Assembly (NCBI GenBank): GCA_964650475.1
Contig: CAZYRK010000002.1
Location: 12,087 to 76,086 of the forward strand
Origin: an uncultured Candidatus Saccharibacteria bacterium
GTDB taxonomy: Bacteria > Patescibacteriota > Minisyncoccia > Phycocordibacterales > Phycocordibacteraceae
Reading direction: 5' to 3'
DNA: 64,000 nucleotides
Within the stretch, counting starts at the first letter, position 1. The number at the start of each line of letters is the position of its first letter. Below are positions 12,859 to 58,139 of the stretch, in pieces. Made by a program: the position numbers and the translations under genes. The notes beneath the pieces were generated by a model, which was given only the letters and a program-made list of their open reading frames with translations, was not told where the DNA came from and searched no databases.

Positions 12859-12898
12859 CCGGGCTACTTAGGGGTCGCCCCCCCCTAAGTAGCCCGGG
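12859..12898. repeat. 40-bp hairpin element, copy 1 (flanks hicAB)
   Basis: CCGGGCTACTTAGGGGTCGCCCCCCCCTAAGTAGCCCGGG. The same core is repeated at 13363-13400 in the same orientation. Confidence 0.7.
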
Positions 12899-12905
12899 AT
12901 GTTTA

Positions 12906-13100
12906 CTATTTTTTACTTATGCCTATTATACCGAGGTCATTACAAATTTTTTTCGCAAGAAAGTTATTTATCTCATTATGTCTTGGAACGGTGGATAATT
13001 TTTTAATGGTTGGATTGAGATACACGCTATGCTTTGCACCCTCCCGCAAAAATATACACCCACATTTTATAAGATGTTTTATGAGGTCAGTCCTTTTCAT
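12906..13100 (-). CDS. hicA: HicA-family mRNA interferase toxin
   Basis: 64 aa, MKRTDLIKHLIKCGCIFLREGAKHSVYLNPTIKKLSTVPRH is close to the HicA consensus (..GSHhxF.hP....tVP.H). Confidence 0.8.
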   Translation of the reverse strand: MKRTDLIKHLIKCGCIFLREGAKHSVYLNPTIKKLSTVPRHNEINNFLAKKICNDLGIIGISKK

Positions 13101-13360
13101 TAGATGGAGACAATGAGATTCTCTTTTATAATTTTTTGCTTGCTATTTGACTTATACATCAAACGGTTTGTCTCCAGCACCAAAAAAAGTGCGTCTTTAA
13201 GATTTTCTTTTGTCTCACTCAGTGTGGCACCTTGAGTATTCACGCCGGGGACTTCTTCAATCCACCCAGAGTACCACTTTCCATCTTTTTTATAGTTTGC
13301 TGTAAATTGTCTTTTCATATACATAGTATACATTACATTAATATATAGATGCGAGCCCAC
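13100..13360 (-). CDS. hicB: HicB-family antitoxin
   Basis: 86 aa, ..YKKDGKWYSGWIEEVPGVNTQGATLSETKENLKDALFLVLE is the HicB/UPF0150 fold signature. The stop overlaps the hicA start. Confidence 0.7.
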   Translation of the reverse strand: MGSHLYINVMYTMYMKRQFTANYKKDGKWYSGWIEEVPGVNTQGATLSETKENLKDALFLVLETNRLMYKSNSKQKIIKENLIVSI

Positions 13361-13362
13361 GG

Positions 13363-13400
13363 GGGTTACTTAGGGGTCGCCCCCCCCTAAGTAACCCGGG
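13363..13400. repeat. 40-bp hairpin element, copy 2 (flanks hicAB)
   Basis: GGGGTTACTTAGGGGTCGCCCCCCCCTAAGTAACCCGGGG has an identical loop and core, with compensatory stem changes versus copy 1. Confidence 0.7.
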
Positions 13401-13406
13401 GTGTGA

Positions 13407-16066: not shown

Positions 16067-18835
16067 ATGTACACCATAAAGATATTAAAATGTAAACCAA
16101 TGCGCGCACATAAGCCCCTACTCTTTTCACTCGCAGTTTTTATCTTTGCTGTTTTGGTAGGCGTGCCTCAAGTCTCTCGGGCAGATACAAATCCAAATAT
16201 TCCACAATGCCCAAGATTCGAAAAAACCGGGCTGCGCTGGACAAATCCAGACCCGCATCGAAACACTTTCAATCAGACTTTTCCTAAAATAGATATGACT
16301 GGGGATATTTTTATATCTAATTATCCTGGTATTTTTATGCAGGACGGTGGCACGTACTCTTTTCCTTTTCATATACCCAGTTTTGGTTATGTGGTTATTG
16401 CAGGTACAAACTGTTCCAAAACAAAAGGCGACCTGTACTTTCTTCCGAAAGATTCCAGCGCACGCCAATTCGTAACGAGCTTCCATGGAGCCGGAGATAT
16501 TTTTGGGGGTTCACCTTACAGCCCACCGGACATTACTTATTTCCAATGGAAAAAATCCGGGCAATACGAGCTTGATATCCAAGAAAAGAATTCTGACACC
16601 GGCACATATGCGCTTACAAAAACCATTCACTTTACAGCAATAAACACCGACAACCCTTGCTCTGCCCCCAATTCCTGTTTTGACAATGTTCTTTTTATCC
16701 CGGGCACCGAAGCGAGCAGACTGTACTACAAAGACGGTTTTGGTGAACACCAAGTATGGGAACCGGATTTTTATACCGATATACCGTACCTAGAAATGAA
16801 CCAAGACGGCACGAGCAAACACACGCTGTACACGAAAGACATTATCGGGAGTTTGTATGGGAACACTACGGTCGAGAAAAAGATTGCTCTGCAATACTTA
16901 AACCAGGACGGAGTACAGGTCTACGGAAACTTCGAAAAGTTTATGAACGGGCTCGTAGCTTCAAGCACAATTAAGCAATGGTCTGCTTACCCCTACGACT
17001 GGCGCTACAGCGCGGACGACATTGTAAACAACGGAACTCTCACAGAAATGCCAAACGGCACCTTAAAACGCGTTTATATTGAAAAAGAGATCGAAAACCT
17101 TGCGTCAAGCTCCCCGACGGGGAAAGTAATGATTGTGGCACATTCAAATGGTGGTTTGGTTGCAAAAGAGCTTTTACAGAAACTCTCCAACGACGGCAAG
17201 CTAAAGCTTGTTGACAAGTTCGTTATGGTTGCCACTCCGCAATGGGGTACACCGGAAGCTATCGGCGTACTATTGCATGGAGACGGACAGACTCAAGCGC
17301 ACGGGCTTCTTATGAGCAGTGCCGAGACCCGAAGAGTAACAAAAACAATGCCCGGAGCTTACGACCTTTTGCCATCCTGGGAATATTTTCAGCAAATTAC
17401 TATTCCGGTTATCACTATCGATGCAAACGGCTCCGCCACAAACGACCTTGCAAAAGCTTTCGGAACAAAAATATCTTATTTCACAGAATTCGCAAATTTT
17501 CTTGAACACGGGTTTGGATATTTCCCCGCCCCGCAAGACACGGACACAGCACTGCGCACACCTATAGCTCTTTCCAAAAAACTCATCGATAAAGCAAAAG
17601 ACATGCATTTTCTTATAGACGTAGCGACCAGATGGTCGGATCTTTACGGTATCGACGTAACAGCGATAGCAGGCTGGGGGCAAAACACAGTAAAAACACT
17701 GGCGTACTCTACCGGGCAAAAAACAATCTGCACAAACCTCACCGCCGATGTTATAAACGCTTTTGAACCTCCGTGCCATACCTACTATTATCTCGAACAC
17801 ACACCGGTAACAACCCAAGGTGGAGACGGCACCGTCGTTTATCAAAGTGCTGTTGGAAATATTATTCACGAGTTGTTTTTTGATTCTTTTCTTTTCAAGA
17901 AAATCTTCCACGAGAAAATAGTCCACCAAAACATAACCTCCGCACCGCCAATACAAAATGTAATTAAAGACATTCTTACAAACAAAAAAGTACAGAAAAC
18001 AAACTACATAACAAAAACAAAACCTTCTTCCGGTGAAACTTTCCACGAAATCCGTATAAGCTCTCATTCTCCGGTAAATATTCTTATAACTTCCGCAAAC
18101 GGGGAACAGAGCGGTGTTGTCCATATTCCCGGCACAGACTTCTCTGGAACAAAAATGGATATTCTAGGAAGCTCCGTGCAGGTTTTCGATACAGAAGAGT
18201 ATGTAAGCCTTCCAAAAAATGGAAACTATAAAGTGGTTGCGCGGGGTCACGGAAACGGCACAGCAACAATACTTATTGAAACGATAGCCCAAGACGGAAC
18301 TGCGAGCACTACAAATACGTTTGCGGAAATTCCGACCACGGCAAGCTCCACCATTACTTTCTCCGTATCAAAAGGACAGCCTACAGCACCTATAATAGAC
18401 CTCACAGGAACCGGCAAACACACTTTTACCATACCTGTTGGCAACGACCCGCTCGCATATGTTCTTTATATGAAAAACGCGATTAAAGAAATGAATCTCT
18501 CTCGCGGTGAGCACTTTGTTATCAATGCAAAGCTCTCCGTGATAGAAATGCAGATAAAAAGCTCCAAAGAAACATCGCGATTTTTCAGAAAGGTGTGGCG
18601 AGGACACAGACCATACGGCAAACTGAGCGCCTGGCGAAACAAACAGATTAAATTTGAGCTTGCTGTTCTTACTCGCTATATCAACCACCAGTTTTCTCTT
18701 TCTGCGCGTATCGATAAAAATAAAGACATGCGCTCGCATCGGCACTTCGCCCGATACAATATGCAACCACACATAAGTGCGACGCAAGCTGAAACCATTA
18801 TCGATATGATCAACCGCCTAAAAAACTTAATCTAA
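16067..18835 (+). CDS. Secreted alpha/beta-hydrolase (lipase/esterase-like, GHSxG-type nucleophile elbow) with large C-terminal region
   Basis: 922 aa with a signal peptide (MRAHKPLLFSLAVFIFAVLVGVPQVSRA) and IVAHSNGGLVAKELL nucleophile motif typical of PGAP1/lipase-class hydrolases. The last ~120 aa are unusually basic. Confidence 0.6.
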   Translation: MYTIKILKCKPMRAHKPLLFSLAVFIFAVLVGVPQVSRADTNPNIPQCPRFEKTGLRWTNPDPHRNTFNQTFPKIDMTGDIFISNYPGIFMQDGGTYSFPFHIPSFGYVVIAGTNCSKTKGDLYFLPKDSSARQFVTSFHGAGDIFGGSPYSPPDITYFQWKKSGQYELDIQEKNSDTGTYALTKTIHFTAINTDNPCSAPNSCFDNVLFIPGTEASRLYYKDGFGEHQVWEPDFYTDIPYLEMNQDGTSKHTLYTKDIIGSLYGNTTVEKKIALQYLNQDGVQVYGNFEKFMNGLVASSTIKQWSAYPYDWRYSADDIVNNGTLTEMPNGTLKRVYIEKEIENLASSSPTGKVMIVAHSNGGLVAKELLQKLSNDGKLKLVDKFVMVATPQWGTPEAIGVLLHGDGQTQAHGLLMSSAETRRVTKTMPGAYDLLPSWEYFQQITIPVITIDANGSATNDLAKAFGTKISYFTEFANFLEHGFGYFPAPQDTDTALRTPIALSKKLIDKAKDMHFLIDVATRWSDLYGIDVTAIAGWGQNTVKTLAYSTGQKTICTNLTADVINAFEPPCHTYYYLEHTPVTTQGGDGTVVYQSAVGNIIHELFFDSFLFKKIFHEKIVHQNITSAPPIQNVIKDILTNKKVQKTNYITKTKPSSGETFHEIRISSHSPVNILITSANGEQSGVVHIPGTDFSGTKMDILGSSVQVFDTEEYVSLPKNGNYKVVARGHGNGTATILIETIAQDGTASTTNTFAEIPTTASSTITFSVSKGQPTAPIIDLTGTGKHTFTIPVGNDPLAYVLYMKNAIKEMNLSRGEHFVINAKLSVIEMQIKSSKETSRFFRKVWRGHRPYGKLSAWRNKQIKFELAVLTRYINHQFSLSARIDKNKDMRSHRHFARYNMQPHISATQAETIIDMINRLKNLI

Positions 18836-19301
18836 CTTTATGAAACTCTGGTATAAAAAATCTAGCCTTTTCATACTCGCCGGCATTTCGTATCTTGTCG
18901 GGCAGTATTTTAGAGGAGAATGGTGGCCTTTTTTCACATGGCCATTCAAATGCAATATGATAACTTCAGGAACCGCCATGTACTGCGACCCTAAATATAT
19001 GGACACTCTCGGCTTTCCTCTCATCGTCCTCGGACAGACGCTCGCTATCGTTGCGCTCATACTTTTGCTTGCAAACGAAAGTGCTTTTCGCAAATGGCTT
19101 CACTTTAGTTATTGGTATGTGCCTGTTGCAACAATACTCTCGTTTATGATGTATCCCGCCCATACCCCTCTTGGCGGAGAGGTTTCTATTTCGCAAGGTG
19201 TTTATTTGTTTGGGAGACCGTATGTTCTCATCACCGCCGGGATTGTAATTCTATATATTCTAAAATTCCTAAAGAGACAACTTCGGGAAAGGAGACTCCG
19301 A
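18791..19301. repeat. 511-bp direct repeat, copy 1
   Basis: Identical ORFs on both strands and identical boundary sequence imply that 18791-19301 equals 19990-20500. It includes the last 45 nt of the hydrolase gene. Confidence 0.75.
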
Positions 19302-19989: not shown

Positions 19990-20500
19990 GAAACCATTAT
20001 CGATATGATCAACCGCCTAAAAAACTTAATCTAACTTTATGAAACTCTGGTATAAAAAATCTAGCCTTTTCATACTCGCCGGCATTTCGTATCTTGTCGG
20101 GCAGTATTTTAGAGGAGAATGGTGGCCTTTTTTCACATGGCCATTCAAATGCAATATGATAACTTCAGGAACCGCCATGTACTGCGACCCTAAATATATG
20201 GACACTCTCGGCTTTCCTCTCATCGTCCTCGGACAGACGCTCGCTATCGTTGCGCTCATACTTTTGCTTGCAAACGAAAGTGCTTTTCGCAAATGGCTTC
20301 ACTTTAGTTATTGGTATGTGCCTGTTGCAACAATACTCTCGTTTATGATGTATCCCGCCCATACCCCTCTTGGCGGAGAGGTTTCTATTTCGCAAGGTGT
20401 TTATTTGTTTGGGAGACCGTATGTTCTCATCACCGCCGGGATTGTAATTCTATATATTCTAAAATTCCTAAAGAGACAACTTCGGGAAAGGAGACTCCGA
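19990..20500. repeat. 511-bp direct repeat, copy 2
   Basis: See copy 1. It starts with a duplicated fragment of the hydrolase 3' end (..ETIIDMINRLKNLI*). Confidence 0.75.
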
Positions 20501-39984: not shown

Positions 39985-40127
39985 AACAAAGAACCTCCTT
40001 TCGGAACTCGGGGCACCTCGCTAATGAGGTTTCTTATTTCCCGGTACCAATGGCGACACACTACCATATTAAAACAACAACGCCAAATTTCCCAGCTAAT
40101 GTGCTATGTTGTCAAGTTCTTATTTTT

Positions 40128-41273
40128 TTACTTCCCGTGTTCAAGAGCTTCGATACCCACGAGAGTGCCGTCTGTAAGAAAATCGAGCATCGCTCCACCT
40201 CCGGTTGAAACAAAAGAAAATTTATCACTAATGCCAAGCGACTCTATCGCGGAAACGGTATCTCCACCACCAACTATCGACTGTGCGGAACTCTTTGCAA
40301 TAGCAAAAGCGAGTTTTGTATCTCCGTCCGTAAAGCCTTTTTCATAATTCCCGAGAGGTCCGTTCCATAGCACGGTTTTTGCTTCTTTGACCAAAGAAGC
40401 AAAAACCGTGCTAGTCTCTTCCCCAACATCAAAAGCCGACTCGTCTTCGCCGATATTGTCTAGTGCGCGCGGTATTTTTTTTGTAGCGTCTTCATCGGCT
40501 TTTGCCACGACGACGTCTACCGGCAAAACCAAATTTTCATTTTTAAGAAGTGCGCGCACGCTGTCTTGGTTTGCTCCCGAAACCCGAGAAGTACCCATCT
40601 TATAGCCCTTTGCGAGCAGAAAGTCATTTGCAAGTGCTCCACCTACAGCAACATGTTCATACGAGTTAAGAAGAGTTTTTATGACAGGCTCTTTTGTATC
40701 AAATTTTGCTCCACCGATAACAGCGAGAGAGGGGTGTTCCGGAGTGCGCGCTTCGGACAAGTTTTTTACTTCCTCTGCAAGCAAAAGACCTGCGTACGAA
40801 GGCAAGAACTTTGGCACCCCAACGATGGAAGCGTGTTCACGATGGCACGTATCAAAAGCGTCTTGCACAAAAACATCTGCAAGGCTCGCCAGAGCGCGGG
40901 CGAAGCCCGCGTCATTTCCCACTTCACCGGGGTTCTGCCTTAAATTTTCAAGCAACAGCACTTCCCCACCCTTAAGCGATTGCTTCATCGCCACCGCCAA
41001 AGGACCGATAGATTCAGATGAAAATCTGACCCTTCTCAGCTTGGAAGCGAGTGCTCGGTACACAGGCATTAATGTTTCTGTTGGAGACCTTCCGATGTGT
41101 CCGCAGACAATCACTTTTGCTCCGGCGTTTGTAAGAAATTTAATAGTCGGTATCGTGCTACGTAAACGAAAATCACTTGTTATGTCTCCGTTTAGCACCG
41201 GCTCGTTTAGTGGAGCGCGAACAAGCACGATCGCTCCGGCAAGAGAAGGAATATTTCGAACGGTTTTCATCAT
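40128..41273 (-). CDS. pgk: Phosphoglycerate kinase
   Basis: 381 aa, typical PGK N- and C-domain signatures. Confidence 0.92.
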   Translation of the reverse strand: MMKTVRNIPSLAGAIVLVRAPLNEPVLNGDITSDFRLRSTIPTIKFLTNAGAKVIVCGHIGRSPTETLMPVYRALASKLRRVRFSSESIGPLAVAMKQSLKGGEVLLLENLRQNPGEVGNDAGFARALASLADVFVQDAFDTCHREHASIVGVPKFLPSYAGLLLAEEVKNLSEARTPEHPSLAVIGGAKFDTKEPVIKTLLNSYEHVAVGGALANDFLLAKGYKMGTSRVSGANQDSVRALLKNENLVLPVDVVVAKADEDATKKIPRALDNIGEDESAFDVGEETSTVFASLVKEAKTVLWNGPLGNYEKGFTDGDTKLAFAIAKSSAQSIVGGGDTVSAIESLGISDKFSFVSTGGGAMLDFLTDGTLVGIEALEHGK

Positions 41274-42016
41274 ACACTTACAGCACCGACAAGAGCCTTA
41301 AATGAATCTGGCTCAACAGCGGAGTGCCCTATGAGAAACCCGTCCACACCACTTCCCTCCGCAAGCACTCGAATATTGTCCGGCTCTACAGAACCTCCGT
41401 AAAGTATTTTTGTGCGCAAAGAGCCCCTACCAGGCAGAAATTCCGAAAGAGCTTTTCGAATATAAAGTATCATCTCAGTGAGATCTGCTGTTGTTATCGA
41501 TTCGGACGATGTCTTTCCTATAGCCCAAACAGGTTCATAGGCTATCAATATTTTAATACGTTCTTTTTGTGAAAGAGGTTCAAAAGCGGAGGATATTTCT
41601 TCTCGTAGAAAGGAGAGGTATCCTCCATTGTCGTCGCGCGAGCGCTCACCTACGCACAAGATAGGAGAAAGCCCCTGCGCGAGCGCGCGCTCAAGCTTTT
41701 GTGATATCTCAGAATTAGTCTCTCCTCTTGCTCTGCGCTCCGAGTGCCCGACAATAGCATACGTCGCTCCAGCCTCGCGAGCGGAGCCTGCGGTCACCTC
41801 GCCTGTTTGCGCGCCACCAGATATAGTAGAAATATCTTGCACAGCAAAAGCAAGTTTTGAATTGTTTTTTTCCGCAAGCAAACCCAAAAAGACGGTCGGC
41901 GGGGCGATGATAAAATCGTGCTCGGTGCTTCCCGCTAGCCTCTTTGCAACGGATACAAGCTTTTTTGCTTTTTCCAAAGACTCGACATACGCTTTCCAGT
42001 TCGTAGCAATAATCAT
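41270..42016 (-). CDS. tpiA: Triosephosphate isomerase
   Basis: 248 aa, MIIATNWKAY.. and ..AYEPVWAIGTG.. TIM signatures. Confidence 0.93.
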   Translation of the reverse strand: MIIATNWKAYVESLEKAKKLVSVAKRLAGSTEHDFIIAPPTVFLGLLAEKNNSKLAFAVQDISTISGGAQTGEVTAGSAREAGATYAIVGHSERRARGETNSEISQKLERALAQGLSPILCVGERSRDDNGGYLSFLREEISSAFEPLSQKERIKILIAYEPVWAIGKTSSESITTADLTEMILYIRKALSEFLPGRGSLRTKILYGGSVEPDNIRVLAEGSGVDGFLIGHSAVEPDSFKALVGAVSV

Positions 42017-42092
42017 TGGTCGTATTGTATCATTTTACCTGCCAAGTTTTTTGGTCTAAGATATCGTTTGAACAGATTATCCGTATTTTTGG

Positions 42093-43583
42093 TTACTCTT
42101 GTCTCCAGTCAATGAATTTGTACGTGGAGGAAGTGGTCGGAGTAAATGGCGGGGGGTTAATAAACTGAGACCTGTCAAAAGAGTTGGTACGAGTTGCGTA
42201 TCCAGAGAAAAACGTATTTCCGCATGCTGGAGTTCCGCTCCACTGTGTACCTGTTCTCTTTTGTGAAACAACTGTTCCGTACATAGAAAGAGAATTTTTT
42301 TGACTGTATTCCAAATATCCTTGCACAAAAGTCCGCGTCTCCCAATCCCAAAAAGAAGTGCAAGCATATCCGTTACGTCCGAAAGCACCGTTTTGAGCTA
42401 CGAAGATACCATACAAAGTCATATCCTCCGGTGAATCTGCGCCGATAAGAACATCGTTTTGCGCCATAAGAGTAAGCCCTGCGCTCGGTGAATTGTAGGT
42501 GATACTATTTTTAAGAACAGCGTCGGTCTCTATTCCTGCAGTATCAATATTTGCAGAAACAAGAGTGACCTTTCGACTAAGCACCCCCTCGACCCATATA
42601 TTGTCTTCTACAAAAATAAGTGCGCAATCTGCTGGGATTGTGTATGTACCCATCAAAGTATCGGACGCAATTACGGTATGGTCGTTCCACCCAAAATCGC
42701 TTGTAGCATCGACTGGAAGTGCATCAAGAGTATATGTTCTCGTTACTTTATATACAGTTATAGTTCCGTTGCCGTTAAAATCAAGCAAGTACCCACGGTG
42801 ACTCGCTCTACTGCTACCAGTGCTATATCGTGGAAAATAAAGACCTTGTGTCTGTGCGATAGACCTAAGTGAGGAGAAGTTAGCGGAGATAGCATTAAAA
42901 TCTATCTGCGGAGTAGGGTATTTCCACAAATTCTGATTATCTCCGGAACCAAACACACCATTTACCCATTGGTCCGGAACACAGCCAAAATTACGTGTAC
43001 AATCCCAGCTTGAAACAGAGCTTGTAACAGGGGCGTTCGCTGTTCCGTCCATACGTATGCCTCCGTTTGAGTGATATGGTCCGTTAATTATTCTGTCCGG
43101 ACCTGCCCAAACGCTTCCGTTAATAACATACGAATACTGCGCGACTGTGGGTTGCGCATAATGGGCGACAATCGTACGAGATATGTTTGGATAAGCTTCA
43201 GGAACTCCGGTCGACTTTATATCAATAGAAGTAGTCTTTCCGCATGATTGGGTTCCGGAAATATCGAGAGTGTACGTTCCTATAACACCGCCTTCTGGAT
43301 CGTTATAATCGATAGTGTACGGGCCCGGCAAACCTGTACCATTTTGCAGATCGTTGGGAAAATGCGCGAGATGCCACCGGTAATATTCGACGCCAGCTTC
43401 GGCAATAGATAGGGCGTTGCTTTTTGCACGGTTTGCTATCTCGAAATTGTTTTCTGAAAGAACGTAACCAGAGAGACCAGAGAAGACCGTAAAAAAGATT
43501 GCTCCAAAAACGAGCGCGAGCAACATAATGGAACCGGATTTATGATTATAGGGCGTACGTTGCATAAAAATATAATACCGCAT
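42093..43583 (-). CDS. PilX-like type IV pilus minor pilin/assembly protein
   Basis: 496 aa, N-terminal TM helix then ..NRAKSNALSIAEAGVEYYRWHL.. (PilX N-terminal-domain-like). Confidence 0.5.
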   Translation of the reverse strand: MRYYIFMQRTPYNHKSGSIMLLALVFGAIFFTVFSGLSGYVLSENNFEIANRAKSNALSIAEAGVEYYRWHLAHFPNDLQNGTGLPGPYTIDYNDPEGGVIGTYTLDISGTQSCGKTTSIDIKSTGVPEAYPNISRTIVAHYAQPTVAQYSYVINGSVWAGPDRIINGPYHSNGGIRMDGTANAPVTSSVSSWDCTRNFGCVPDQWVNGVFGSGDNQNLWKYPTPQIDFNAISANFSSLRSIAQTQGLYFPRYSTGSSRASHRGYLLDFNGNGTITVYKVTRTYTLDALPVDATSDFGWNDHTVIASDTLMGTYTIPADCALIFVEDNIWVEGVLSRKVTLVSANIDTAGIETDAVLKNSITYNSPSAGLTLMAQNDVLIGADSPEDMTLYGIFVAQNGAFGRNGYACTSFWDWETRTFVQGYLEYSQKNSLSMYGTVVSQKRTGTQWSGTPACGNTFFSGYATRTNSFDRSQFINPPPFTPTTSSTYKFIDWRQE

Positions 43584-44167
43584 TATTGTGCGCTAATGTT
43601 GCGTAATTTTGCACCCGCGGAAAGAGTAAAGTCTTCCGGGGCGCGTGCGGGGTTTAAGTTTACGGTTATTGTCGTGTTTATGGACGTAATATCCGTAATG
43701 TTAACAGGTGAATAAAGTTCCGTTCCCGCAGAATCGTAATAACGGAAAATCGGTGTGCTTGTATCTGTGCGTACATACGTTGCAACAGTATCCGTAATAT
43801 CCGGCGTGTCCGAGTACACCGGAGGAACACCGGTCGGGATAGTTATACTTCGATAAAGAGTAGTGCCACTTAAATAATATTGAACTCTATCTACCACATC
43901 GTCGCCTTTCAAATCGACATAAAAAGTAACACTCGAATCTGTAGCGCTAACGATAGGGTACGCCCCGTCTTCTCCGTATGAGGCTTCGCGCAAATCACGC
44001 ATCGAGTTAATAATCCCGATGTGAGCACTTTCTACAGCTTTTGTTTGCTCAAAAACATACGCGTTTGTTCTGTAGAAATACTGTATAACAAACATCATCG
44101 CACTAAAGACAATGGCAAACATTGTCACTGTTACGATTGTTTCAATGAGAGTAAAACCGCGCGTCAT
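43583..44167 (-). CDS. Prepilin-type N-terminal cleavage/methylation domain pseudopilin
   Basis: MTRGFTLIETIVTVTMFAIV is a class III signal. The start is set at this Met; the ORF extends to 44257. Confidence 0.65.
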   Translation of the reverse strand: MTRGFTLIETIVTVTMFAIVFSAMMFVIQYFYRTNAYVFEQTKAVESAHIGIINSMRDLREASYGEDGAYPIVSATDSSVTFYVDLKGDDVVDRVQYYLSGTTLYRSITIPTGVPPVYSDTPDITDTVATYVRTDTSTPIFRYYDSAGTELYSPVNITDITSINTTITVNLNPARAPEDFTLSAGAKLRNISAQ

Positions 44168-44222
44168 GTCTTTATGATAGCACTGGGCTCGGCTACGCCG
44201 AGCCCAGTGCACACATTTAAGG

Positions 44223-45932
44223 TTAAGGGAAAGATGCAACATAGAAAACTTGTCCATCTACTTCGACATTTGAAAACGTTGTTGTTGTATAACCTGTCTT
44301 GGATATATCAACTGAATAATCAGTACTTGTGGCCAGATTTCCAAAGTACGCGGTTCCACATAAAGAAGTATCAACTGTTTTTGAGTATCCTTTTGCCGTT
44401 TCCGAGAGGCTTACACTTGCGTCTTGTACCGGGAAATTACTCGCGTCTGTCACTGTTACAAGCAATTGGTTTGTTGTTTTATCTCCTAGTATAAACGAGT
44501 TCGTACGGAAATCTCCCGGTCCCATAAAATACGGCGGGGTGGCGCAAGCGTCCAGTACATCATACCCACCAAATACAATAGAGTATTTATCTCCTTCGAG
44601 AGACATTTCTCGAACACCAAGAGCATCTGTTGTGGTTGATATTACAGTTTTATAAATAGGAGCTCCAGCACCCGTTGTACCTATCTCTTTAGTGCCCGTT
44701 AGTGTGAAGCCAGCATCTGCCAAAGGAGTCGGCGCGGTTTTGTAGCTGACCGTCCAATCAAAAAGCTTTGGCACTATCGAGGAGTTGCTTGTGGTTGCAA
44801 TAACACCAAGCACCAGTGTCGAGTATGTGCTGGTTGCAACATTTGAAAGGCTTACTGGGAAGCTACTAAACCCCTCGCTATTTCCAGAAAGCACTGTGTC
44901 TGGCAAAAGCGCTCCAGAAGAATCATATACACGAACACGCATGCCAGAACCTGATGATATTCCGGTATCCGCAGAAAGGCTTGTCCACGAATACAAATTG
45001 CTCGGGGCTATATTTGTAGATGTCGCATACCCCAAAAGTGCTCCGTCGACAAGCTCGAGATCTCCCAAAACAGCATCCATACTTGAAGTTGCGGAAAGTA
45101 GAGATTCATCTGCAAAAGTATCGCTGAACTCCGCTGAAGCTGGCGGAGAGTAAGTAAGTAGAGTTAGTGATGAGAGCAAGTCAATCGGAAAAGTGTACGC
45201 TGTCGTTTCATCTTTCACGACGGTTAGATACCCCGGATTTGGATTTTGGTTAAAAGAATCGCGAACATAAGTTTGAGCGGAAGAATAATCATCTTTCGAT
45301 ACATAAACCTGATACTCGGTAGAAGTCGGAGCGCCACCGAGCAAAACCTCTCCAGAAGTATCTGAAAATGTAGAGAGGTCGATTGCCGGAGCTGTACTAG
45401 CGTTTACAATACGAACCGTTGCCCCTGCAATCGGTGTGCCTGAGAAATTTACAACGTGTATTAAAAGAGTACCTCCACCATTTGTCGTTTCTATCCCTAC
45501 CGGTGAAAAGTTTGAAAGCAGAGTAACTTCTCTTGTAGCCCCCGCCGAAACATATGACACAACTATTTTGGCAAGTTTATAATCGGTCGTGATGCCGTTT
45601 GTGTCGTCTGCACCAAGCCCGTCTGCTGGATCGTCAATATACTGAATGTATGTCCGAACAGTATATGTAACGCCGTCGAGCACTATCGTTTTGTTTTGCG
45701 GTATGTTACCTGCCGGAATACCGCCGATAGTGCCAAGAGCGTCGTACGACAAGCCGCGCAAATATTCCATCTGAGATCCTGCAAGCGATGAAGCCCCCGC
45801 GCGCGCCTTTGCAAGACTCGACACGAGTATCGATGCTCGCAAGATTCCCAAAAGCGATACGAATATTATAAGAACCAGCGCCGAGCCGACGATAACATCG
45901 ATAAGTGTCATACCCCGTGCGCGAATATACAT
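44223..45932 (-). CDS. Large PilV-like pilin-family protein
   Basis: ..ARGMTLIDVIVGSALVLIIFVSLLGIL.. prepilin-like N-terminus followed by ~550-aa Ser/Thr-rich domain. The ORF in the track runs to 46121 through the repeat region, so the start is chosen at MYIRARGM. Confidence 0.55.
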   Translation of the reverse strand: MYIRARGMTLIDVIVGSALVLIIFVSLLGILRASILVSSLAKARAGASSLAGSQMEYLRGLSYDALGTIGGIPAGNIPQNKTIVLDGVTYTVRTYIQYIDDPADGLGADDTNGITTDYKLAKIVVSYVSAGATREVTLLSNFSPVGIETTNGGGTLLIHVVNFSGTPIAGATVRIVNASTAPAIDLSTFSDTSGEVLLGGAPTSTEYQVYVSKDDYSSAQTYVRDSFNQNPNPGYLTVVKDETTAYTFPIDLLSSLTLLTYSPPASAEFSDTFADESLLSATSSMDAVLGDLELVDGALLGYATSTNIAPSNLYSWTSLSADTGISSGSGMRVRVYDSSGALLPDTVLSGNSEGFSSFPVSLSNVATSTYSTLVLGVIATTSNSSIVPKLFDWTVSYKTAPTPLADAGFTLTGTKEIGTTGAGAPIYKTVISTTTDALGVREMSLEGDKYSIVFGGYDVLDACATPPYFMGPGDFRTNSFILGDKTTNQLLVTVTDASNFPVQDASVSLSETAKGYSKTVDTSLCGTAYFGNLATSTDYSVDISKTGYTTTTFSNVEVDGQVFYVASFP

Positions 45933-45996
45933 ATTATTTACATAATACAACACGTTCACCAAACGTACACAAAAACTTTTGCGTATCCTTCTTTGT

Positions 45997-46524
45997 TTGG
46001 GAAGGTTAGACCTTCCCAACTTCCCAAGAACCATCTTTGGCACTTTTTGGGAAGGTCTAACCTTCCCAACTTTCCACAAATAAAAACCTAAGCGGTATGC
46101 CGACACTCGTTTTGCGGACACTAAGTGTCCGCAAGTGGGCTAGAAATCGTAATCGGAGAGTATGTCGAGTTTGTGTTCCATGCGCTCGCGAGCGAACTCT
46201 TTAAAAGACCCGGGCTCATTGAAGATTTCTCCGAGGAGCTCAGTGTCTAAAATCGGTGATACATTTTTCGAATTCTCGACAGGAGCACTCGTTTTGCGGA
46301 CACTAAGTGTCCGCAAGTGGGAAAGAAAGTGTTTGCGTAGCATGTTTTGCGGACACTTAGTGTCCGCAAAACAAGTGTTTGCGTTTCGTCCGTGCCATAT
46401 TGTTTTGTAATGTAGCGTGTGGTTTTTCATCAGGAGAGACCAGCTAACATTTTGGGAAGGTCTAACCTTCCCAACTTCCCGAGAACCATCTTTGGCACTT
46501 TTTGGGAAGGTTAGACCTTCCCAA
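45997..46524. repeat. Cluster A of 23-bp perfect-palindrome repeats R1 (TTGCGGACAC-T[A/T]A-GTGTCCGCAA) and R2 (TTGGGAAGGT-[TAG/CTA]-ACCTTCCCAA) with shared flanks
   Basis: R2 is at 45997, 46047, 46452 and 46502. R1 is at 46112, 46294 and 46347. Connector segments are shared (GAACCATCTTTGGCACTTT; CCACAAATAAAAACCTAAGCGGTA). Confidence 0.85.
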
Positions 46525-46570
46525 CTTGAGTGGGTGTAATTCATGTGAAAATTGCGGTAAACAAAAAGCC

Positions 46571-54354: not shown

Positions 54355-54549
54355 GGTATTTATATAAAAACTATACTACAGCTCTACTTAAAGTACATGC
54401 GCATTTCTACGGTAGCCCAATAACGCGGGCAAAAGACCTCCGGTCTTTTGCCCGCGTTATCCCCACCCACACACAAACAACCTGCCCCGCACAACACATC
54501 TGATATACAATCAAGACATTAACTTAATATTAATATCCACTTTTCTTTT

Positions 54550-55512
54550 ATGTCTCGCAGACTAATTTCACAAATAGGGCTTCTGGTCGCAGTGTTCTTC
54601 CTCTCTGTTGCGGTACAGGGTTATGCTTCCTTTAGGGAACCAAACACAACCCCACCAAACGCAAATGTAAACGCCCCACTAAACACCGGCTCGTCTGCGC
54701 AAACGAAGTCCGGGGATCTTACTGTTAAGAACCTTACCTCTGTTGGAAGCATCTGGTCCACAGATGTTGTTTCTTCCGGTAATGTATTTGCAAAAAATGT
54801 CACCGCAACAGGAAATGTATATGCCAATGGCGATATTTATACTAACGGTGGCAGAATATACGCAGCAAAAGGCGTCTACATTAAAGAAGCCGGGCACTGG
54901 AAAAAGCTCGCGATGGGCAACACTGTGAACAATACGAATACAGTTGCTTACCTATACAAATCCCAACACACAACAAAACAATGTACGAACCTTGGCGGAA
55001 CCGTTGTTACCGACGGCTCGACAAAGTTCTGTAAGTTCATGGAGAACTACGATTTAGGTGCTGTAACTCACACAAATCCTAGTATTGGTGGTACACCCGT
55101 CAACAATCCACCTTCACAACAACAACGTAATTTCTGTACCTCACTGGGTGGAAAAGTTACGGCTACACAAACCAAAGCGTGGGGTTTTATACTCGCCGGA
55201 ACATATTATAAATGCGTTTTCCCTCACGGTTATTCAAACACATCAAACAACCAAGTCCCTGCTGGGTGGGCAATATATAGACACTACCCAAGAACGGCTC
55301 GGGTCAACGGGTCTACTGGTGGATGGTCGATTACAGTACCAGAAACTTGTCACGGACATGACAATCCGAGTTCTCAATGCACGACAAAATCACACTCAAC
55401 ACTACAAAACAAAGGCCGAGAAACTTGCTCTTTCTATTCGTACATTGCATACCAAGGTAGAGGATTTACCGATACTTGCCAGGCAGCAGTAGTTGCTGTT
55501 GGAGCGTACTAG
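54550..55512 (+). CDS. Secreted Cys-rich hypothetical protein
   Basis: 320 aa, signal peptide, multiple Cys pairs, N/T-rich. Confidence 0.5.
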   Translation: MSRRLISQIGLLVAVFFLSVAVQGYASFREPNTTPPNANVNAPLNTGSSAQTKSGDLTVKNLTSVGSIWSTDVVSSGNVFAKNVTATGNVYANGDIYTNGGRIYAAKGVYIKEAGHWKKLAMGNTVNNTNTVAYLYKSQHTTKQCTNLGGTVVTDGSTKFCKFMENYDLGAVTHTNPSIGGTPVNNPPSQQQRNFCTSLGGKVTATQTKAWGFILAGTYYKCVFPHGYSNTSNNQVPAGWAIYRHYPRTARVNGSTGGWSITVPETCHGHDNPSSQCTTKSHSTLQNKGRETCSFYSYIAYQGRGFTDTCQAAVVAVGAY

Positions 55513-55526
55513 AAAGGTAACCCCCC

Positions 55527-55578
55527 ACCCACACACACAACAGCCCCGACCTTAAAAGGTCGGGGCTGTTGTGTGTGT
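55527..55578 (+). terminator. Hairpin terminator
   Basis: ACACACAACAGCCCCGACC-TTAAAA-GGTCGGGGCTGTTGTGTGTG. Confidence 0.5.
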
Positions 55579-55617
55579 GGGTTTTGGGTGACAAACAGGT
55601 AAATGGTTTGGTGTCTG

Positions 55618-55955
55618 TTTTGCGGACACTTTTGCGGACACTAAGTGTCCGCAAACCGATGTTTGCGTTTCGTCCGCGTCATATTGTTTTTTTTGCGGAC
55701 ACTAAGTGTCCGCAAACCGAGACCTTCCCAACTTTTTTCCACAAATAAAAACCTAAGCGGTACGTTGCGATGGATAGGGTAAGACATGTCCGAGCGGCCC
55801 GGAGCATGTTTTGCCGACACTTTTGCGGACACTTAGTGTCCGCAAAACATGCTCCGCAAAAACTCTCTGCCGCTTAGTGTCGGCAGAGAGTTTCGCGTGT
55901 GGTTTTGGGGTTTAGATAGACCGGCTAACATTTTGTGAAGGTTAGCCCTCCCCAA
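55618..55955. repeat. Cluster B of R1/R2 palindrome repeat family
   Basis: R1 is at 55632, 55693 and 55823, with partial copies and a related hairpin CTCTCTGCCG-CTTAGTGT-CGGCAGAGAG. There is a half R2 at 55722, a degenerate R2 at 55933, and the same connector CCACAAATAAAAACCTAAGCGGTA as cluster A. Confidence 0.8.
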
Positions 55956-56322
55956 ATCTATACAATGTTAAATTGTGTAAGAAGCATTGTCTTTACGGTC
56001 TTAAATTTTAACAAAAGGAAACAGCACCGCGGGGATATAAAAAACATTGTCTTTTTCAAGACAAAAAATCTATTTCACACTGGTTTTTATCCTACTCAAG
56101 TATTTCGAACATACGTTGATAAAAAATCAAGGTATTTTTATCAACGTATGTGGGAAAATAGGCGGTTGGAAGTCTTTATTTTGCAAAAAAAAACCGGCAA
56201 AACCTTTTCTCAAAGAAGGCTTAAAGAAAAAGCCTAGTGCGGTTTTCGTGCTCTCGCAAAGCACCGCCCAATTAAAAAAGCCCCGACCTTTTTAAGGTCG
56301 GGGCTTTGGCTCGCAGATATTG

Positions 56323-57375
56323 TTATTTATCATATGAGTCCCGTGACGGGAGCTGACGTTTGAAGTCTCCGTACTGCGGAAACATCTTTACAAACTCCTC
56401 ACATAAAGGAACCATAACTTCTCTCATCGAGGGTTCCGCTCCTCCGGAAGTGCGGAGCGCCATCATGTGCATCCACTCAACCAGATTCGCATAAACGATA
56501 ATTTCCGTTTTGCATGAATTCGGGAGAACGGTTCGAGCCGCTTGTGGCGAAACCTTCTTTCCGTCCGGTCCCAAACTCCCCAAAAGTTTCAGATAAGTCT
56601 GCTCCGCTTGAAGAACAGACTTTTCCCAAAGGGAGTAAAGCTCCGTACCTTCTTTGAAAAACATGGGTTTGATGTACGTAACCCTGTTTCCAAAGCGGTC
56701 GATATTGTACCGGCAATACCTCTGGCTTTCCTGCAGATACGAGCATGGGCGGTGACGCACAATCTCGTGCGTTACGGCACGGTTTACAATAAACTTCACC
56801 GCAATGTGCCGATGCCGAGCGCGCATGTCCGGAGGAAGTTCATTAACCTCGATCAAAGGCACTTGCTTCACTTCAATACCCAAAGAAAAACCGTGCTCCG
56901 GATACTGCAGGTCATCGAAGAAACATGGGTGTTCAAACCACATATCGCCAACAATTGCTGTGGTTATCTCGCACTCCGGGTGAAATATGTACATTTCCCG
57001 AAAAGCTCGTACGCTCCCGGTGATAAGAAGCTGGTAGTACCACGGGTTTTGCATATCTCTTTGCAAACCATAGAGACTGTCCACAAACAAATACTTTGGT
57101 ATCGTTTCGTAAAAATTTTTCAGCTTTTTTACGTCTTGAAACGAAACGCGGTAGCTAACAACAGCCATCTCCAAAACCGAGTTGTGCCCTCTCTTCACCG
57201 TATTACGGCAAAAAGGCTCTGCCGTAATACGACCCACTTTGTGCTCGCTTTTATAGCAAATTCTGCCACACTCTTCTATTCTTTTCTCAAGACCTTGACT
57301 ATCCAACCCCGTTAAAATCTCGAACGAAGGCGAAACCACTTTTGCTTTTGTGAAATCTGTTTCCTGCGTTCTCAT
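56323..57375 (-). CDS. thyX: Flavin-dependent thymidylate synthase ThyX (long form)
   Basis: RHRPCSYLQESQRY ThyX motif. 350 aa, RBS AAAGGAGGA upstream. Confidence 0.85.
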   Translation of the reverse strand: MRTQETDFTKAKVVSPSFEILTGLDSQGLEKRIEECGRICYKSEHKVGRITAEPFCRNTVKRGHNSVLEMAVVSYRVSFQDVKKLKNFYETIPKYLFVDSLYGLQRDMQNPWYYQLLITGSVRAFREMYIFHPECEITTAIVGDMWFEHPCFFDDLQYPEHGFSLGIEVKQVPLIEVNELPPDMRARHRHIAVKFIVNRAVTHEIVRHRPCSYLQESQRYCRYNIDRFGNRVTYIKPMFFKEGTELYSLWEKSVLQAEQTYLKLLGSLGPDGKKVSPQAARTVLPNSCKTEIIVYANLVEWMHMMALRTSGGAEPSMREVMVPLCEEFVKMFPQYGDFKRQLPSRDSYDK

Positions 57376-57554
57376 AACATCCTCCTTTTTGTTTTTCAGT
57401 CACATTCGCTCATAAGTGAGCTTTTCAAAATACAATACTATCTAAAGCCAAAGTACATTTACACAATGCCAATGTCAACAAACGCGCAAACATCATTTCA
57501 TTGCCGTGCTGTTTGTTTTCAGTAGCATATGTATCCAAAACTCTGTATAAAAAC

Positions 57555-57608
57555 CGCATATCAGACTTAATAGTAACCGGTACCGGTTACTATTAAGTCT
57601 GATATGCG
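57555..57608. repeat. 54-bp perfect palindrome (27+27, no spacer)
   Basis: CGCATATCAGACTTAATAGTAACCGGT|ACCGGTTACTATTAAGTCTGATATGCG lies in the divergent thyX-rny intergenic region. Confidence 0.85.
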
Positions 57609-58139
57609 AAACATAGCTAAAAAGTATTAAGACTGACTTCTTTGAAAAAGATTGTTTTCACTACAAATAATCTGATATTTGTTTGAGACCCCCCTCCATA
57701 AATAAGGAGGTTTTTCTGAAGATAAGCGCTTCAAGGCGAAAATTAAGCGGAGAATACGAAAAACCAAACAACACCGCACCGAAAACTGTGTTGAGAAATA
57801 AAGGTGCCACAAGTATCGCGCCCCAGTGTCAAAACATATTGACACTGGGGCGCGATACTAAAAAAGCTGAGGATTTGGAATATAACGAGACGGAAAACAT
57901 AATTAAAATTCCATTGAAACACTTTTTACTGGCAATAGGGTGAAAATAAAGTATTGAATGTCTTTTTATTTTGGCTACTTTTTGTTTTTGAATTTCGCTT
58001 TCCGCGTGCTAAAGTGCTCGCACCGTTAGAAAACAGCGGACTTATCATTTATTCCGTTCTCGACAGTCCTCGCACACCACCTCCGGACACGATTTGCATA
58101 GAAAAGACTTGAGGAACTGCCGAGCGGTAATCCCTATCT

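What the first reader, a model, noticed from the sequence alone, without database searches (positions are those of the whole stretch)
55618..55955. Cluster B of the R1/R2 palindrome family, 9 kb from cluster A, next to a secreted Cys-rich protein gene
There are three full R1 copies (55632, 55693, 55823) plus truncated TTTTGCGGACACT and TTTTGCCGACACT pieces. There is a derived hairpin CTCTCTGCCG-CTTAGTGT-CGGCAGAGAG, one half R2 and one degenerate R2 (TTGTGAAGGTTAGCCCTCCCCAA). The same connectors as cluster A are present (CCACAAATAAAAACCTAAGCGGTA; GTTTGCGTTTCGTCCG.GTCATATTGTTTT; GACCGGCTAACATTTT). The conserved module order (R1...GTGTGGTTTT...GACCRGCTAACATTTT-R2) across the two loci shows a composite ~150-200-bp element that has been copied, then decayed differently. 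Both loci neighbour genes for exported or cell-surface proteins.
Basis: seen in the sequence. Interest (0 to 1): 0.6.

Follow-up and report, generated by a model that had tools for sequence, protein, structure and literature searches.

The report
REP hairpin cluster of a tyrosine transposase
The repeat cluster is real: it is an intergenic pile-up of small DNA hairpins (REP-type repeats) whose likely mobilising enzyme, a RAYT-like single-strand DNA transposase, survives as a broken gene inside the sister cluster 9 kb away. This is a known kind of system seen here in a tiny-genome candidate-phylum (Patescibacteria) bacterium.

Summary
The 23-nt perfect palindrome R1 (TTGCGGACACTWAGTGTCCGCAA) occurs six times in the window, three per cluster, with 0 expected by chance. 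Cluster B also holds solo arms, a decayed variant hairpin, decayed R2 pieces and connectors shared with cluster A.

R1 behaves as a REP-type element:
- About 100 near-identical copies lie in 27 metagenome contigs of the same population.
- 95 of 103 copies lie outside ORFs of at least 120 aa, and the other 8 fall in ORFs that look spurious.
- Arrays of R1 flank an intact 229-aa HUH/Y1 transposase gene on contigs L002 and L018.
- Window 46143-46291 (− strand), inside cluster A, is the 3' remnant of that gene (98.7% DNA identity).

The protein matches Pfam Y1_Tnp, has the HUH and Tyr motifs, and its best fold match is the E. coli REP-associated tyrosine transposase (4ER8). Six of seven homologous genes examined in other Patescibacteria carry their own palindrome on both sides. 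One subclade carries R1-like stems and the other R2-like stems, so R2 is probably the REP of a second, unseen paralogue.

Cluster B sits between two convergent terminators in a variable islet. Verdict: a new member of a known kind (REP/RAYT), with moderate interest. The link to secreted-protein genes is unsupported.

The parts
55618..55629 (.). Solo left arm of R1 (TTTTGCGGACAC), a 12-nt arm duplication directly in front of R1 copy 1
   Evidence: Window 55618-55655 is 100% identical to L002 213-250, the array just upstream of the transposase gene. Solo arms are common: 77 in window plus loci, and 64 of them break at the loop apex.
55630..55656 (.). R1 copy 1 (core 55632-55654, loop TAA): REP-type perfect palindrome
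   Evidence: Exact match. As ssDNA the hairpin folds at -12.9 kcal/mol, z -8.4.
55657..55690 (+). Connector CGATGTTTGCGTTTCGTCCGCGTCATATTGTTTT, shared with cluster A (46373-46406)
   Evidence: (family D16, 87%).
55691..55717 (.). R1 copy 2 (core 55693-55715, loop TAA)
55721..55734 (+). Right half of an R2 palindrome (GACCTTCCCAACTT)
   Evidence: 46008-46022 and 46513-46527 match 55720-55734 at 100%.
55739..55762 (+). Connector CCACAAATAAAAACCTAAGCGGTA. The same connector follows R2 in cluster A (46074-46097) and in many other loci
   Evidence: R2 followed by cttatccacaaataaaaacc... recurs in L006, L016, L026, L029 and L030.
55752..55802 (-). Module homologous to the non-coding flank of the RAYT-like gene (...GGTACGTTGCGATGGATAGGG...GAGCGGCCCGG)
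   Evidence: L002 145-182 matches window 55784-55746 at 89.7% on the minus strand. The same module lies next to the gene remnant in L009 at about 1150-1205.
55809..55820 (.). Solo arm of the C-variant (TTTTGCCGACAC); it forms a 12-nt bulge inside the long palindrome 55800-55856
55800..55856 (.). Extended palindrome CGGAGCATGTTTTGC...GCAAAACATGCTCCG containing R1 copy 3 (core 55823-55845, flipped loop TTA)
   Evidence: I4: 22-nt arms, 95%.: -19.9 kcal/mol, z -8.3..
55863..55890 (.). Decayed copy of the compensatory R1 variant (GCCGACAC...GTGTCGGC) that has lost ACA from its left arm, with CTCTCT/AGAGAG stem extensions
   Evidence: -10.9 kcal/mol. The intact form ctctGCCGACACTAAGTGTCGGCagag is in L009 and L002. 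The G:C to C:G variant occurs 10 times against 85 for the main form, with 13 hybrids. It is the very palindrome that flanks the 67%-identical homologue P0003.
55895..55932 (+). Connector GCGTGTGGTTTT...GACCGGCTAACATT, which in cluster A (46415-46451) also leads into R2
   Evidence: (D6).
55933..55955 (.). Degenerate R2 (TTGTGAAGGTTAGCCCTCCCCAA), with 3 mismatches; no longer a hairpin
55532..55577 (+). Context: intrinsic-terminator-like hairpin of the 320-aa gene (54550-55512); left boundary of the gene-free gap that holds cluster B
   Evidence: 20 pairs plus a T run.: -37.8 kcal/mol.
56277..56307 (-). Context: intrinsic-terminator-like hairpin of thyX (56323-57375, − strand); right boundary of the gap
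46143..46291 (-). Cluster A: 3' remnant of the RAYT-like transposase gene (codons 185-229 plus a fragment of about codons 160-167), truncated against an R1 copy
   Evidence: tblastn gives 45/45 identical residues, E 4e-25. blastn aligns L002 953-1110 with window 46277-46120 at 98.7%, and L002 877-902 with 46291-46266. No other Y1 gene is present in the window.
46110..46371 (.). Cluster A: three R1 copies (cores 46112, 46294, 46347) bracketing the gene remnant
45997..46069 (.). Cluster A, left R2 doublet (R2, 27-nt spacer, then R2 with flipped loop)
   Evidence: D7.
46452..46524 (.). Cluster A, right R2 doublet: same spacer orientation as the left doublet but both loops flipped
   Evidence: D7, 91%.

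Best explanation
Cluster B is a BIME-like array of REP-type elements in a Patescibacteria (Paceibacteria/Kaiserbacteria-related) genome.

What the parts are:
- R1 is the hairpin substrate of a lineage-specific RAYT-like HUH/Y1 single-strand DNA transposase.
- R2 is a second REP family that probably belongs to a paralogous transposase not present in the window.

Proposed mechanism (inferred from IS200/IS605 and E. coli TnpA-REP biochemistry, not shown here): when DNA is single-stranded, for example at the replication fork, R1 folds into a 10-12-bp hairpin. The transposase binds the hairpin, cuts nearby with its catalytic tyrosine and rejoins the strands. This copies or moves hairpin-containing segments, preferentially next to existing hairpins, so arrays build up.

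Arrays persist only where they do no harm. Here that is the gap between two convergent terminators, in a variable islet between CMAS and rny. Over time the arrays acquire solo arms that break at the loop apex, flipped loops, compensatory variants and decayed copies. Cluster A is an older copy of the transposase locus itself, in which the gene has been truncated against an R1 copy. Any terminator or mRNA-stabilising role of R1 would be secondary.
For: Shown:
1. R1 is far above chance and nearly invariant. There are 6 copies in the window. About 98-112 copies lie in 27 metagenome contigs plus L002, and 82 of 111 are one of two exact 21-mers that differ only in the central loop base.
2. R1 is extragenic. 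95 of 103 copies lie outside ORFs of at least 120 aa, although 81% of bases lie inside such ORFs. The other 8 copies lie in three ORFs that look spurious: an end-open ORF running through the L005 repeat array (not inspected further), the read-through of the gene remnant in window cluster A, and an over-extended L009 ORF.
3. At least 16 contigs end within about 100 nt of an R1, as expected for a multicopy repeat.
4. An intact 229-aa ORF flanked on both sides by R1 arrays is present in L002 and L018. It scores 28.6 bits on Pfam Y1_Tnp against a cut-off of 23. Its only NCBIfam hit is REP_Tyr_transpos.
5. N84-H85-x-H87 and Y145...N150 are invariant across 26 and 43 homologues.
6. The AlphaFold model has pLDDT 90.5. 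Its best PDB match is 4ER8, the REP-associated tyrosine transposase bound to a REP hairpin, ahead of the IS608 and ISDra2 TnpA structures.
7. The window carries the 3' 45 codons of this gene inside cluster A.
8. Cluster B modules are homologous to the gene's flanks.
9. Six of the seven homologous genes examined in other Patescibacteria carry their own perfect palindrome on both sides. Stems are GGACAC/CGACAC in the subclade closest to the L002 protein, and GGAAG../AAGGT (R2-like) in the other. The seventh, L049, shows a palindrome upstream only.
10. A compensatory G:C to C:G change in the stem supports selection for pairing.
11. R1 and R2 are absent from 17.5 kb of syntenic sequence in a relative whose RNase Y is 78% identical.
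12. R1, scanned as its 21-nt core, is absent from GTDB species representatives apart from L002 and one chance-level hit.
Against: - No intact transposase gene lies in the 64-kb window, and I could not show that the intact copy (L002/L018) is in the same genome. L002 is binned in a Desulfobacterales MAG.
- The protein scores below the NCBIfam RAYT cut-off (31.8 against 80). By sequence profile its nearest solved relative is ISDra2 TnpA at E 0.035.
- The GTAG tag typical of many REPs is found at a fixed distance from only 16 of 98 copies, and from none of the cluster B copies.
- The gene exists as one intact form plus at least two remnants. That fits less well with a strictly single-copy domesticated RAYT.
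- Cleavage, binding and mobility were not tested.
- No clean filled-versus-empty site pair was found.
- No independent contig spans cluster B.
Confidence: 0.8

Rival explanations
1. The system is an ordinary autonomous IS200/IS605-type insertion sequence (transposase gene plus terminal hairpins), together with its miniature, gene-less derivatives (MITE/PATE-like). On this reading it is a purely selfish element rather than a RAYT/REP partnership, and clusters A and B are dead IS copies and solo ends.
For: - The gene has been copied and has decayed: one intact form plus remnants in cluster A, L009 (two remnants) and L026.
- Cluster B resembles one flank of the gene.
- The profile search against PDB sequences finds ISDra2 TnpA first.
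- The NCBIfam RAYT score is below its cut-off.
Against: - The protein is 229 aa with an extra C-terminal helical region, and its best fold match is TnpA-REP 4ER8, which aligns over 200 columns against about 140 for the IS608 and ISDra2 structures.
- No tnpB gene is present.
- The same palindrome, not distinct left and right ends, lies on both sides of the gene.
- Hairpins outnumber genes by roughly 50 to 1.
- Homologues sit at one fixed chromosomal site in several independent samples, which is RAYT-like.
Confidence: 0.13
2. R1 and R2 are primarily host regulatory sequences, either operator sites for a dimeric DNA-binding protein or bidirectional intrinsic terminators and mRNA stabilisers. They would have multiplied because they are useful, with no transposase involved.
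For: - They are perfect 23-nt palindromes.
- TTTT...AAAA flanks give a terminator-like shape on both strands.
- They are located at gene ends.
Against: - The terminator scan reports a separate terminator-like hairpin for each flanking gene, at 55532-55577 and 56277-56307, and reports none of the R1 copies.
- Three full copies plus solo arms and decayed copies packed into 340 bp is not an operator layout.
- R1 arrays flank a Y1 transposase gene, and so do the equivalents in six of the seven homologue loci examined.
- No Rfam family matches.
Confidence: 0.05
3. Cluster B is an assembly artefact, that is, repeat-induced chimerism or a collapse of cluster A.
For: - No independent contig spans 55512-56012.
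- Short-read assemblies break at these repeats.
- L026 shows an alternative junction nearby.
Against: - Clusters A and B have different unique flanks and a different module order.
- The same kinds of arrays appear in 27 contigs from independent assemblies.
- The flanks of A and the right flank of B are confirmed independently.
Confidence: 0.02

Closest known systems
REP/BIME elements with their REP-associated tyrosine transposase (RAYT, TnpA-REP; E. coli YafM, PDB 4ER8; REPIN-RAYT systems of Pseudomonas and Enterobacteria)
   Same: - Short extragenic palindromes occur in many near-identical copies, clustered with conserved linkers.
- A Y1/HUH transposase gene is flanked by the same palindromes.
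- The best fold match is 4ER8.
- More than one REP family, each with its own paralogous transposase, appears to coexist.
- Homologues sit at fixed chromosomal sites.
Features of the family are as described in PMC5581495 and PMC3733652.
   Different: - The palindromes are perfect rather than imperfect, and both loop orientations are about equally common.
- A GTAG tag is present in only about 16% of copies and lies 5 nt from the R1 palindrome.
- The protein falls below the NCBIfam RAYT cut-off and belongs to a clade whose named members are all labelled Patescibacteria or CPR.
- The gene has left decayed copies.
- Solo arms are abundant and break at the loop apex.
- R1 arrays are nested between R2 copies.
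IS200/IS605 family (IS608, ISDra2) TnpA and its hairpin ends
   Same: - It shares the HUH plus single-Tyr catalytic core, with subterminal DNA hairpins on both sides of the gene.
- It has weak profile similarity to ISDra2 TnpA.
- Fold matches rank 2 to 18.
   Different: - The protein is about 80 aa longer.
- There is no tnpB gene.
- The hairpins at the two ends are identical.
- Gene-less hairpins far outnumber genes.
GTAG-/CGTC-tagged palindromic repeats surveyed across prokaryotes (Di Nocera et al. 2013, PMC3733652)
   Same: A subset of R1 copies is the long palindrome GTAGCGCGGGGTT-R1-AACCCCGCGCTAC (L014 at 2406).
   Different: Most copies, including all three in cluster B, lack the tag.

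Membership tests
REP / BIME elements | Short (about 20-40 nt) palindrome able to form a stable hairpin | tested here: met
   R1 is a 23-29-nt perfect palindrome, -12.9 kcal/mol as ssDNA, z -8.4.
REP / BIME elements | Many dispersed, near-identical copies in one genome | tested here: inconclusive
   There are 6 copies at 2 loci in 64 kb and about 100 copies in 27 contigs of the same metagenome population. No closed genome was available to count copies per genome.
REP / BIME elements | Extragenic location | tested here: met
   95 of 103 copies lie outside ORFs of at least 120 aa, against 81% of bases inside such ORFs. The other 8 lie in three ORFs that look spurious. Cluster B lies between two convergent terminators.
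REP / BIME elements | Clusters with conserved linkers and alternating orientation (BIME-like) | tested here: met
   Connectors are shared between clusters A and B and other loci. Both loop orientations occur within one cluster.
REP / BIME elements | Conserved GTAG or CGTC tetranucleotide at one end | tested here: inconclusive
   GTAGCGCG (one mismatch allowed) lies at a fixed 5-nt distance from R1 in 16 of 98 copies, and in none of the cluster B copies.
RAYT (REP-associated tyrosine transposase) | HUH motif and catalytic tyrosine on a Y1_Tnp fold | tested here: met
   Pfam Y1_Tnp scores 28.6 bits against a cut-off of 23. N-H-x-H and Y...N are invariant. The model has pLDDT 90.5 and its top PDB match is 4ER8.
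RAYT (REP-associated tyrosine transposase) | Passes the curated NCBIfam equivalog model NF047646 | tested here: not met
   The score is 31.8 bits against a cut-off of 80. It is, however, the only NCBIfam family hit.
RAYT (REP-associated tyrosine transposase) | Gene flanked on both sides by its cognate REPs | tested here: met
   Seen in L002 and L018 and in homologues in L040 (two genes), L042 and L045 and L051. L049 and L054 show a palindrome or hairpin doublet upstream only.
RAYT (REP-associated tyrosine transposase) | One copy per genome, vertically inherited | not testable with these tools
   No complete genome was available. There is one intact form plus at least two remnants. Homologues occupy the same site in several samples.
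RAYT (REP-associated tyrosine transposase) | Binds and cleaves single-stranded REP DNA | not testable with these tools
   This needs biochemistry.
IS200/IS605 insertion sequence | TnpA of about 130-150 aa, distinct left and right end hairpins, often tnpB, several identical full copies | tested here: not met
   The protein is 229 aa, the same palindrome lies at both ends, and no tnpB is present. Full-copy number could not be tested.

The most novel reading that the evidence does not exclude
A Patescibacteria-specific clade of RAYT-like transposases may run an active hairpin-DNA system in an ultra-small genome. Its features would be:
- perfect-palindrome REPs whose loops flip
- arms that duplicate or break exactly at the loop apex
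- two REP families that nest inside each other (R1 arrays between R2 copies)
- a transposase-hairpin specificity code readable from seven gene-palindrome pairs

The arrays may act as recombination points that reshuffle neighbouring surface-protein genes, as hinted by the alternative junction in L026.
Probability: 0.25. Interest if true: 0.55.

Novelty: new member of a known kind. Interest (0 to 1): 0.38.

Why it matters
REP/RAYT systems have been studied almost only in Proteobacteria. Two full-text searches of the paper library found no description of REP, REPIN or RAYT systems in Patescibacteria or CPR bacteria. One preprint that mentions both terms does so for an archaeal locus.

Finding one in a streamlined episymbiont-type genome matters for three reasons:
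- It shows that such genomes tolerate, and possibly use, hairpin repeats.
- It explains why these MAGs fragment at particular sites.
- It offers a compact set of transposase-hairpin pairs with clear stem differences, including a compensatory G:C to C:G switch between 67%-identical enzymes. These pairs could be used to study how HUH transposases read their hairpins.

It does not change the understanding of the mechanism.

Tried and rejected
- **Rfam.** The gathering-threshold scan of the window found only one tRNA. The E-value scan of 55400-56350 gave only sub-threshold generic hairpin hits. No known RNA family is involved.
- **Viral contigs.** Scans for R1 and R2 found 0 matches, so there is no sign of a phage origin.
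- **GTDB genome scan for R1.** It returned only L002 and a single copy in a Streptomyces contig. About 0.3 chance hits are expected from my own arithmetic, so I treated the Streptomyces copy as chance.
- **Closest relatives via ThyX.** The best non-self hits are about 57% identical and labelled Desulfobacterota, so they were useless for comparing orthologous sites.
- **Exact look-up of the 320-aa neighbour.** It is not on record, so cluster B could not be confirmed in an independent contig.
- **Single-sequence PDB search with the transposase.** It found nothing meaningful. The profile search found only weak ISDra2 hits. The fold search was needed.
- **Search for the R2-cognate transposase.** P0045, P0046 and P0042 each carry their own, different palindromes and not R2. 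The R2 partner remains unidentified.
- **A single ancestral unit for A and B.** Global alignment gives competing solutions, so I rejected one ancestral unit in favour of a modular mosaic.
- **CRISPR array.** Rejected because the spacing is irregular and the repeats are palindromes with shared, non-unique spacers.
- **Filled versus empty site.** The syntenic Kaiserbacteria relative has different genes at this position, so no clean empty site exists.

Full report
**1.

- The 23-nt perfect palindrome R1 (TTGCGGACACTWAGTGTCCGCAA) is found exactly six times in the 64-kb window. Three copies are in cluster B (55632, 55693, 55823) and three in cluster A (46112, 46294, 46347). None is expected by chance.
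- R2 (TTGGGAAGGTYWRACCTTCCCAA) is exact four times in cluster A. It occurs once in cluster B, with three mismatches, at 55933-55955. That copy no longer folds.
- The connectors align with cluster A at 85-93% identity.
- The order of modules is not simply conserved. Two alternative alignments of A against B are about equally good, so the clusters are mosaics rather than two decayed copies of one unit.

**2. Setting**

- The window has 44% G+C.
- It comes from a Patescibacteria (CPR) bacterium of the Paceibacteria type. Its RNase Y is 78% identical to that of a Candidatus Kaiserbacteria MAG, and the other named hits are Paceibacterota, Minisyncoccia or Patescibacteria.
- Cluster B lies in an 810-bp gap between two convergent genes. 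One encodes a 320-aa protein with an N-terminal hydrophobic segment and no Pfam match (54550-55512, + strand). The other is thyX (56323-57375, − strand).
- The terminator scan reports a strong terminator-like hairpin for each of these genes, at 55532-55577 and 56277-56307. It reports none of the R1 copies. Cluster B therefore sits between two terminator-like hairpins.
- In the syntenic region of the Kaiserbacteria relative, a different pair of genes lies between CMAS and rny. No R1 or R2 is present in 17.5 kb there.
- The region at about 54.4-57.9 kb is therefore a variable islet.

**3. The decisive lead: a transposase gene flanked by R1**

A scan of one genome per GTDB species with the R1 core returned a 1284-bp contig, L002, apart from one chance-level hit. 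In L002 at least six R1 copies flank a 229-aa ORF.

Evidence on what the ORF encodes:
- It matches Pfam Y1_Tnp (IS200-like transposase) above the gathering cut-off, 28.6 against 23 bits.
- Its only NCBIfam hit is REP-associated tyrosine transposase, but below that model's cut-off, 31.8 against 80 bits.
- Its last 45 codons are 100% identical in protein and 98.7% identical in DNA to window 46277-46143 on the − strand, inside cluster A. A further fragment (L002 877-902) abuts the R1 copy at 46294.
- Cluster A is therefore a decayed copy of the transposase locus. No other Y1 gene is present in the window.

Links between cluster B and this gene's flanks:
- Window 55618-55655 is 100% identical to L002 213-250, in the array upstream of the gene.
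- Window 55746-55784 matches L002 145-182 at 89.7% on the opposite strand.
- Window 55821-55872 matches L002 1223-1274 at 90.4%.

**4. R1 behaves as a REP**

- The metagenome scan found 27 contigs (L004-L030) from one project, holding about 100 R1 copies.
- L030 is the window itself over 40016-46205 (99.4%), so this is the same population.
- 82 of 111 copies are one of two exact 21-mers that differ only in the central loop base.
- 95 of 103 copies lie outside any ORF of at least 120 aa, although 81% of bases lie inside such ORFs. The other 8 fall in three ORFs that look spurious. One is an end-open ORF that runs through the L005 repeat array (not inspected further). The second is the read-through of the gene remnant in cluster A. 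The third is an over-extended ORF in L009.
- At least 16 contigs end within about 100 nt of an R1.
- One stem position shows a compensatory switch: G:C in 85 copies, C:G in 10 and 13 hybrids.
- There are 77 solo arms, and 64 of them stop 0-2 nt past GACAC, which is at the loop apex.
- A GTAGCGCG tag (one mismatch allowed) lies 5 nt from R1 in 16 of 98 copies. The tag is on both sides in L014, which gives a 24-nt-arm palindrome. It is not next to any cluster B copy.

**5. The protein family**

- The protein's homologues are about 230-aa proteins, and every named one is from a Patescibacteria or CPR MAG.
- H13, R17, N84-H85-x-H87 (the HUH motif) and Y145...N150 are invariant.
- An AlphaFold model of the 67%-identical P0003 has pLDDT 90.5.
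- Its best solved-structure match is 4ER8, the E. coli REP-associated tyrosine transposase bound to a REP hairpin. The IS608, ISDra2 and IS200 transposases follow.
- A sequence-profile search of the PDB finds only ISDra2 TnpA, weakly.

**6. Flanking palindromes are a family trait**

Contexts of the homologous genes examined:

| Locus and protein | Identity to L002 protein | Flanking palindrome | Where |
|---|---|---|---|
| L040, P0003 | 67% | GCCGACACTWAGTGTCGGC (the compensatory R1 variant seen in cluster B) | both sides |
| L042, P0018 | 53% | GGACACGTAGTGTCC | both sides |
| L045, P0044 | 45% | GGAAGTCWGACTTCC | both sides |
| L040, second paralogue | 40% | CCATGGAAGTCTGACTTCCATGG | both sides |
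| L051, P0046 | 37% | GAGTAAGGT-loop-ACCTTACTC | both sides |
| L049, P0045 | 44% | its own palindrome | upstream only |
| L054, P0042 | 50% | an inverted doublet (REPIN-like) | upstream |

- The subclade closest to the L002 protein therefore carries GGACAC/CGACAC stems, like R1.
- The other subclade (N-terminus MRVEP) carries GGAAG/AAGGT stems, like R2.
- From this I infer that R2 is the REP of a second paralogue that is not in the window. I could not find that gene.
- R2 is as uniform as R1: 22 of 29 copies are exact.
- R2 brackets R1 arrays on both sides in L004, L005 and cluster A.

**7. Mechanism**

Shown:
- hairpin-forming, extragenic, multicopy palindromes
- a cognate-looking HUH/Y1 gene flanked by them
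- co-variation between enzyme clade and stem sequence
- decay products in the window

Inferred from IS608, ISDra2 and E. coli TnpA-REP biochemistry (general knowledge; PMC3479197, PMC5581495):
- The enzyme recognises the folded hairpin on single-stranded DNA, cuts and rejoins nearby, and so multiplies hairpin-bearing segments.
- These segments accumulate next to each other in harmless intergenic gaps.

Open points:
- The apex-broken solo arms and the flipped loops could come from enzyme cuts at the loop. They could equally come from template switching or hairpin processing during replication. This remains unresolved.

**8. Rival explanations**

- **Plain IS200/IS605 element with miniature derivatives.** This is the main rival. 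It differs mostly in whether the gene is selfish or domesticated. Remnant gene copies favour it. Against it are protein length, the fold match, identical hairpins at both ends, the absence of tnpB and a hairpin-to-gene ratio of roughly 50 to 1.
- **Primary operator or terminator role.** This is unlikely because each flanking gene has its own terminator-like hairpin and the arrays contain arm fragments.
- **Mis-assembly.** It is unlikely for the family as a whole, but it cannot be excluded for the fine structure of cluster B, which no independent contig spans.

**9. Comparison with the known and novelty**

- The system works like REP/BIME elements with a RAYT.
- It meets most membership features, fails the curated NCBIfam cut-off, and lacks a consistent GTAG tag.
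- I file it as a new member of a known kind, namely a Patescibacteria-specific RAYT-like clade with perfect-palindrome REPs.
- Two full-text searches found no description of REP/RAYT systems in CPR bacteria.
- The proposed association with exported-protein genes is not supported beyond coincidence.
- Interest is moderate.

Noticed in passing
window 12861-12902 and 13363-13404 (genes 12906-13100 − and 13100-13318 −): Two direct copies (93%) of a 42-nt palindrome, GGGYTACTTAGGGGTCGCCCCCCCCTAAGTARCCCGG, bracket a hicA toxin gene (Pfam HicA_toxin, 36.8 bits) and a HicB-like gene (UPF0150, 26.9 bits, just under the cut-off). This looks like a toxin-antitoxin cassette framed by hairpins.
   Followed up: partly
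window 54420-54530; L026 2020-2132: Contig L026 joins a cluster-A-like array (R1 copies plus transposase remnant, next to an 85%-identical homologue of the 632-aa gene) to window 54440-54529. The junction lies inside the hairpin at 54420-54460. Several Logan contigs also end at 54474-54514. This points to a second genomic context or strain rearrangement just upstream of the 320-aa gene.
   Followed up: partly
window 56323-57375 (thyX) and 54400-57900: The best non-self relatives of ThyX are only about 57% identical and all named hits are labelled Desulfobacterota, whereas RNase Y places the genome in Patescibacteria. A Kaiserbacteria relative has other genes at this position. thyX may be horizontally acquired within a variable islet.
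   Followed up: partly
window 55541-55568 and 56279-56305: The two convergent terminator hairpins that frame cluster B share the same core, AGCCCCGACCTT-loop-AAGGTCGGGGCT.
   Followed up: partly
window 54462-54481 and 55522-55543: The motif CCCACCCACACACA(A/C)ACAAC occurs both upstream and downstream of the 320-aa gene, against 0.01 expected matches.
   Followed up: no
window 18791-19090 and 19990-20289: An exact 300-nt direct repeat, spaced 1199 nt apart, covers the starts of two paralogous ORFs of 158 and 165 aa that have no convincing Pfam match.
   Followed up: no
window 4673, 7613, 20603, 25879, 26152, 51332, 53169; L052: Long G+C-rich perfect hairpins, mostly with TTCG-type loops and A/T-run flanks, follow many genes. 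They are terminator-like. The same style appears in the Kaiserbacteria relative.
   Followed up: no
L009 381-1090 (− strand): A small membrane-anchored or secreted protein gene sits between two R1 arrays, each carrying a transposase-gene remnant. This hints that R1 arrays can bracket host genes.
   Followed up: no
L002 (CAZODM010000230.1): The only GTDB-representative contig carrying R1 and the intact transposase gene is binned in an 'uncultured Desulfobacterales' MAG. It is probably a mis-binned Patescibacteria contig.
   Followed up: no
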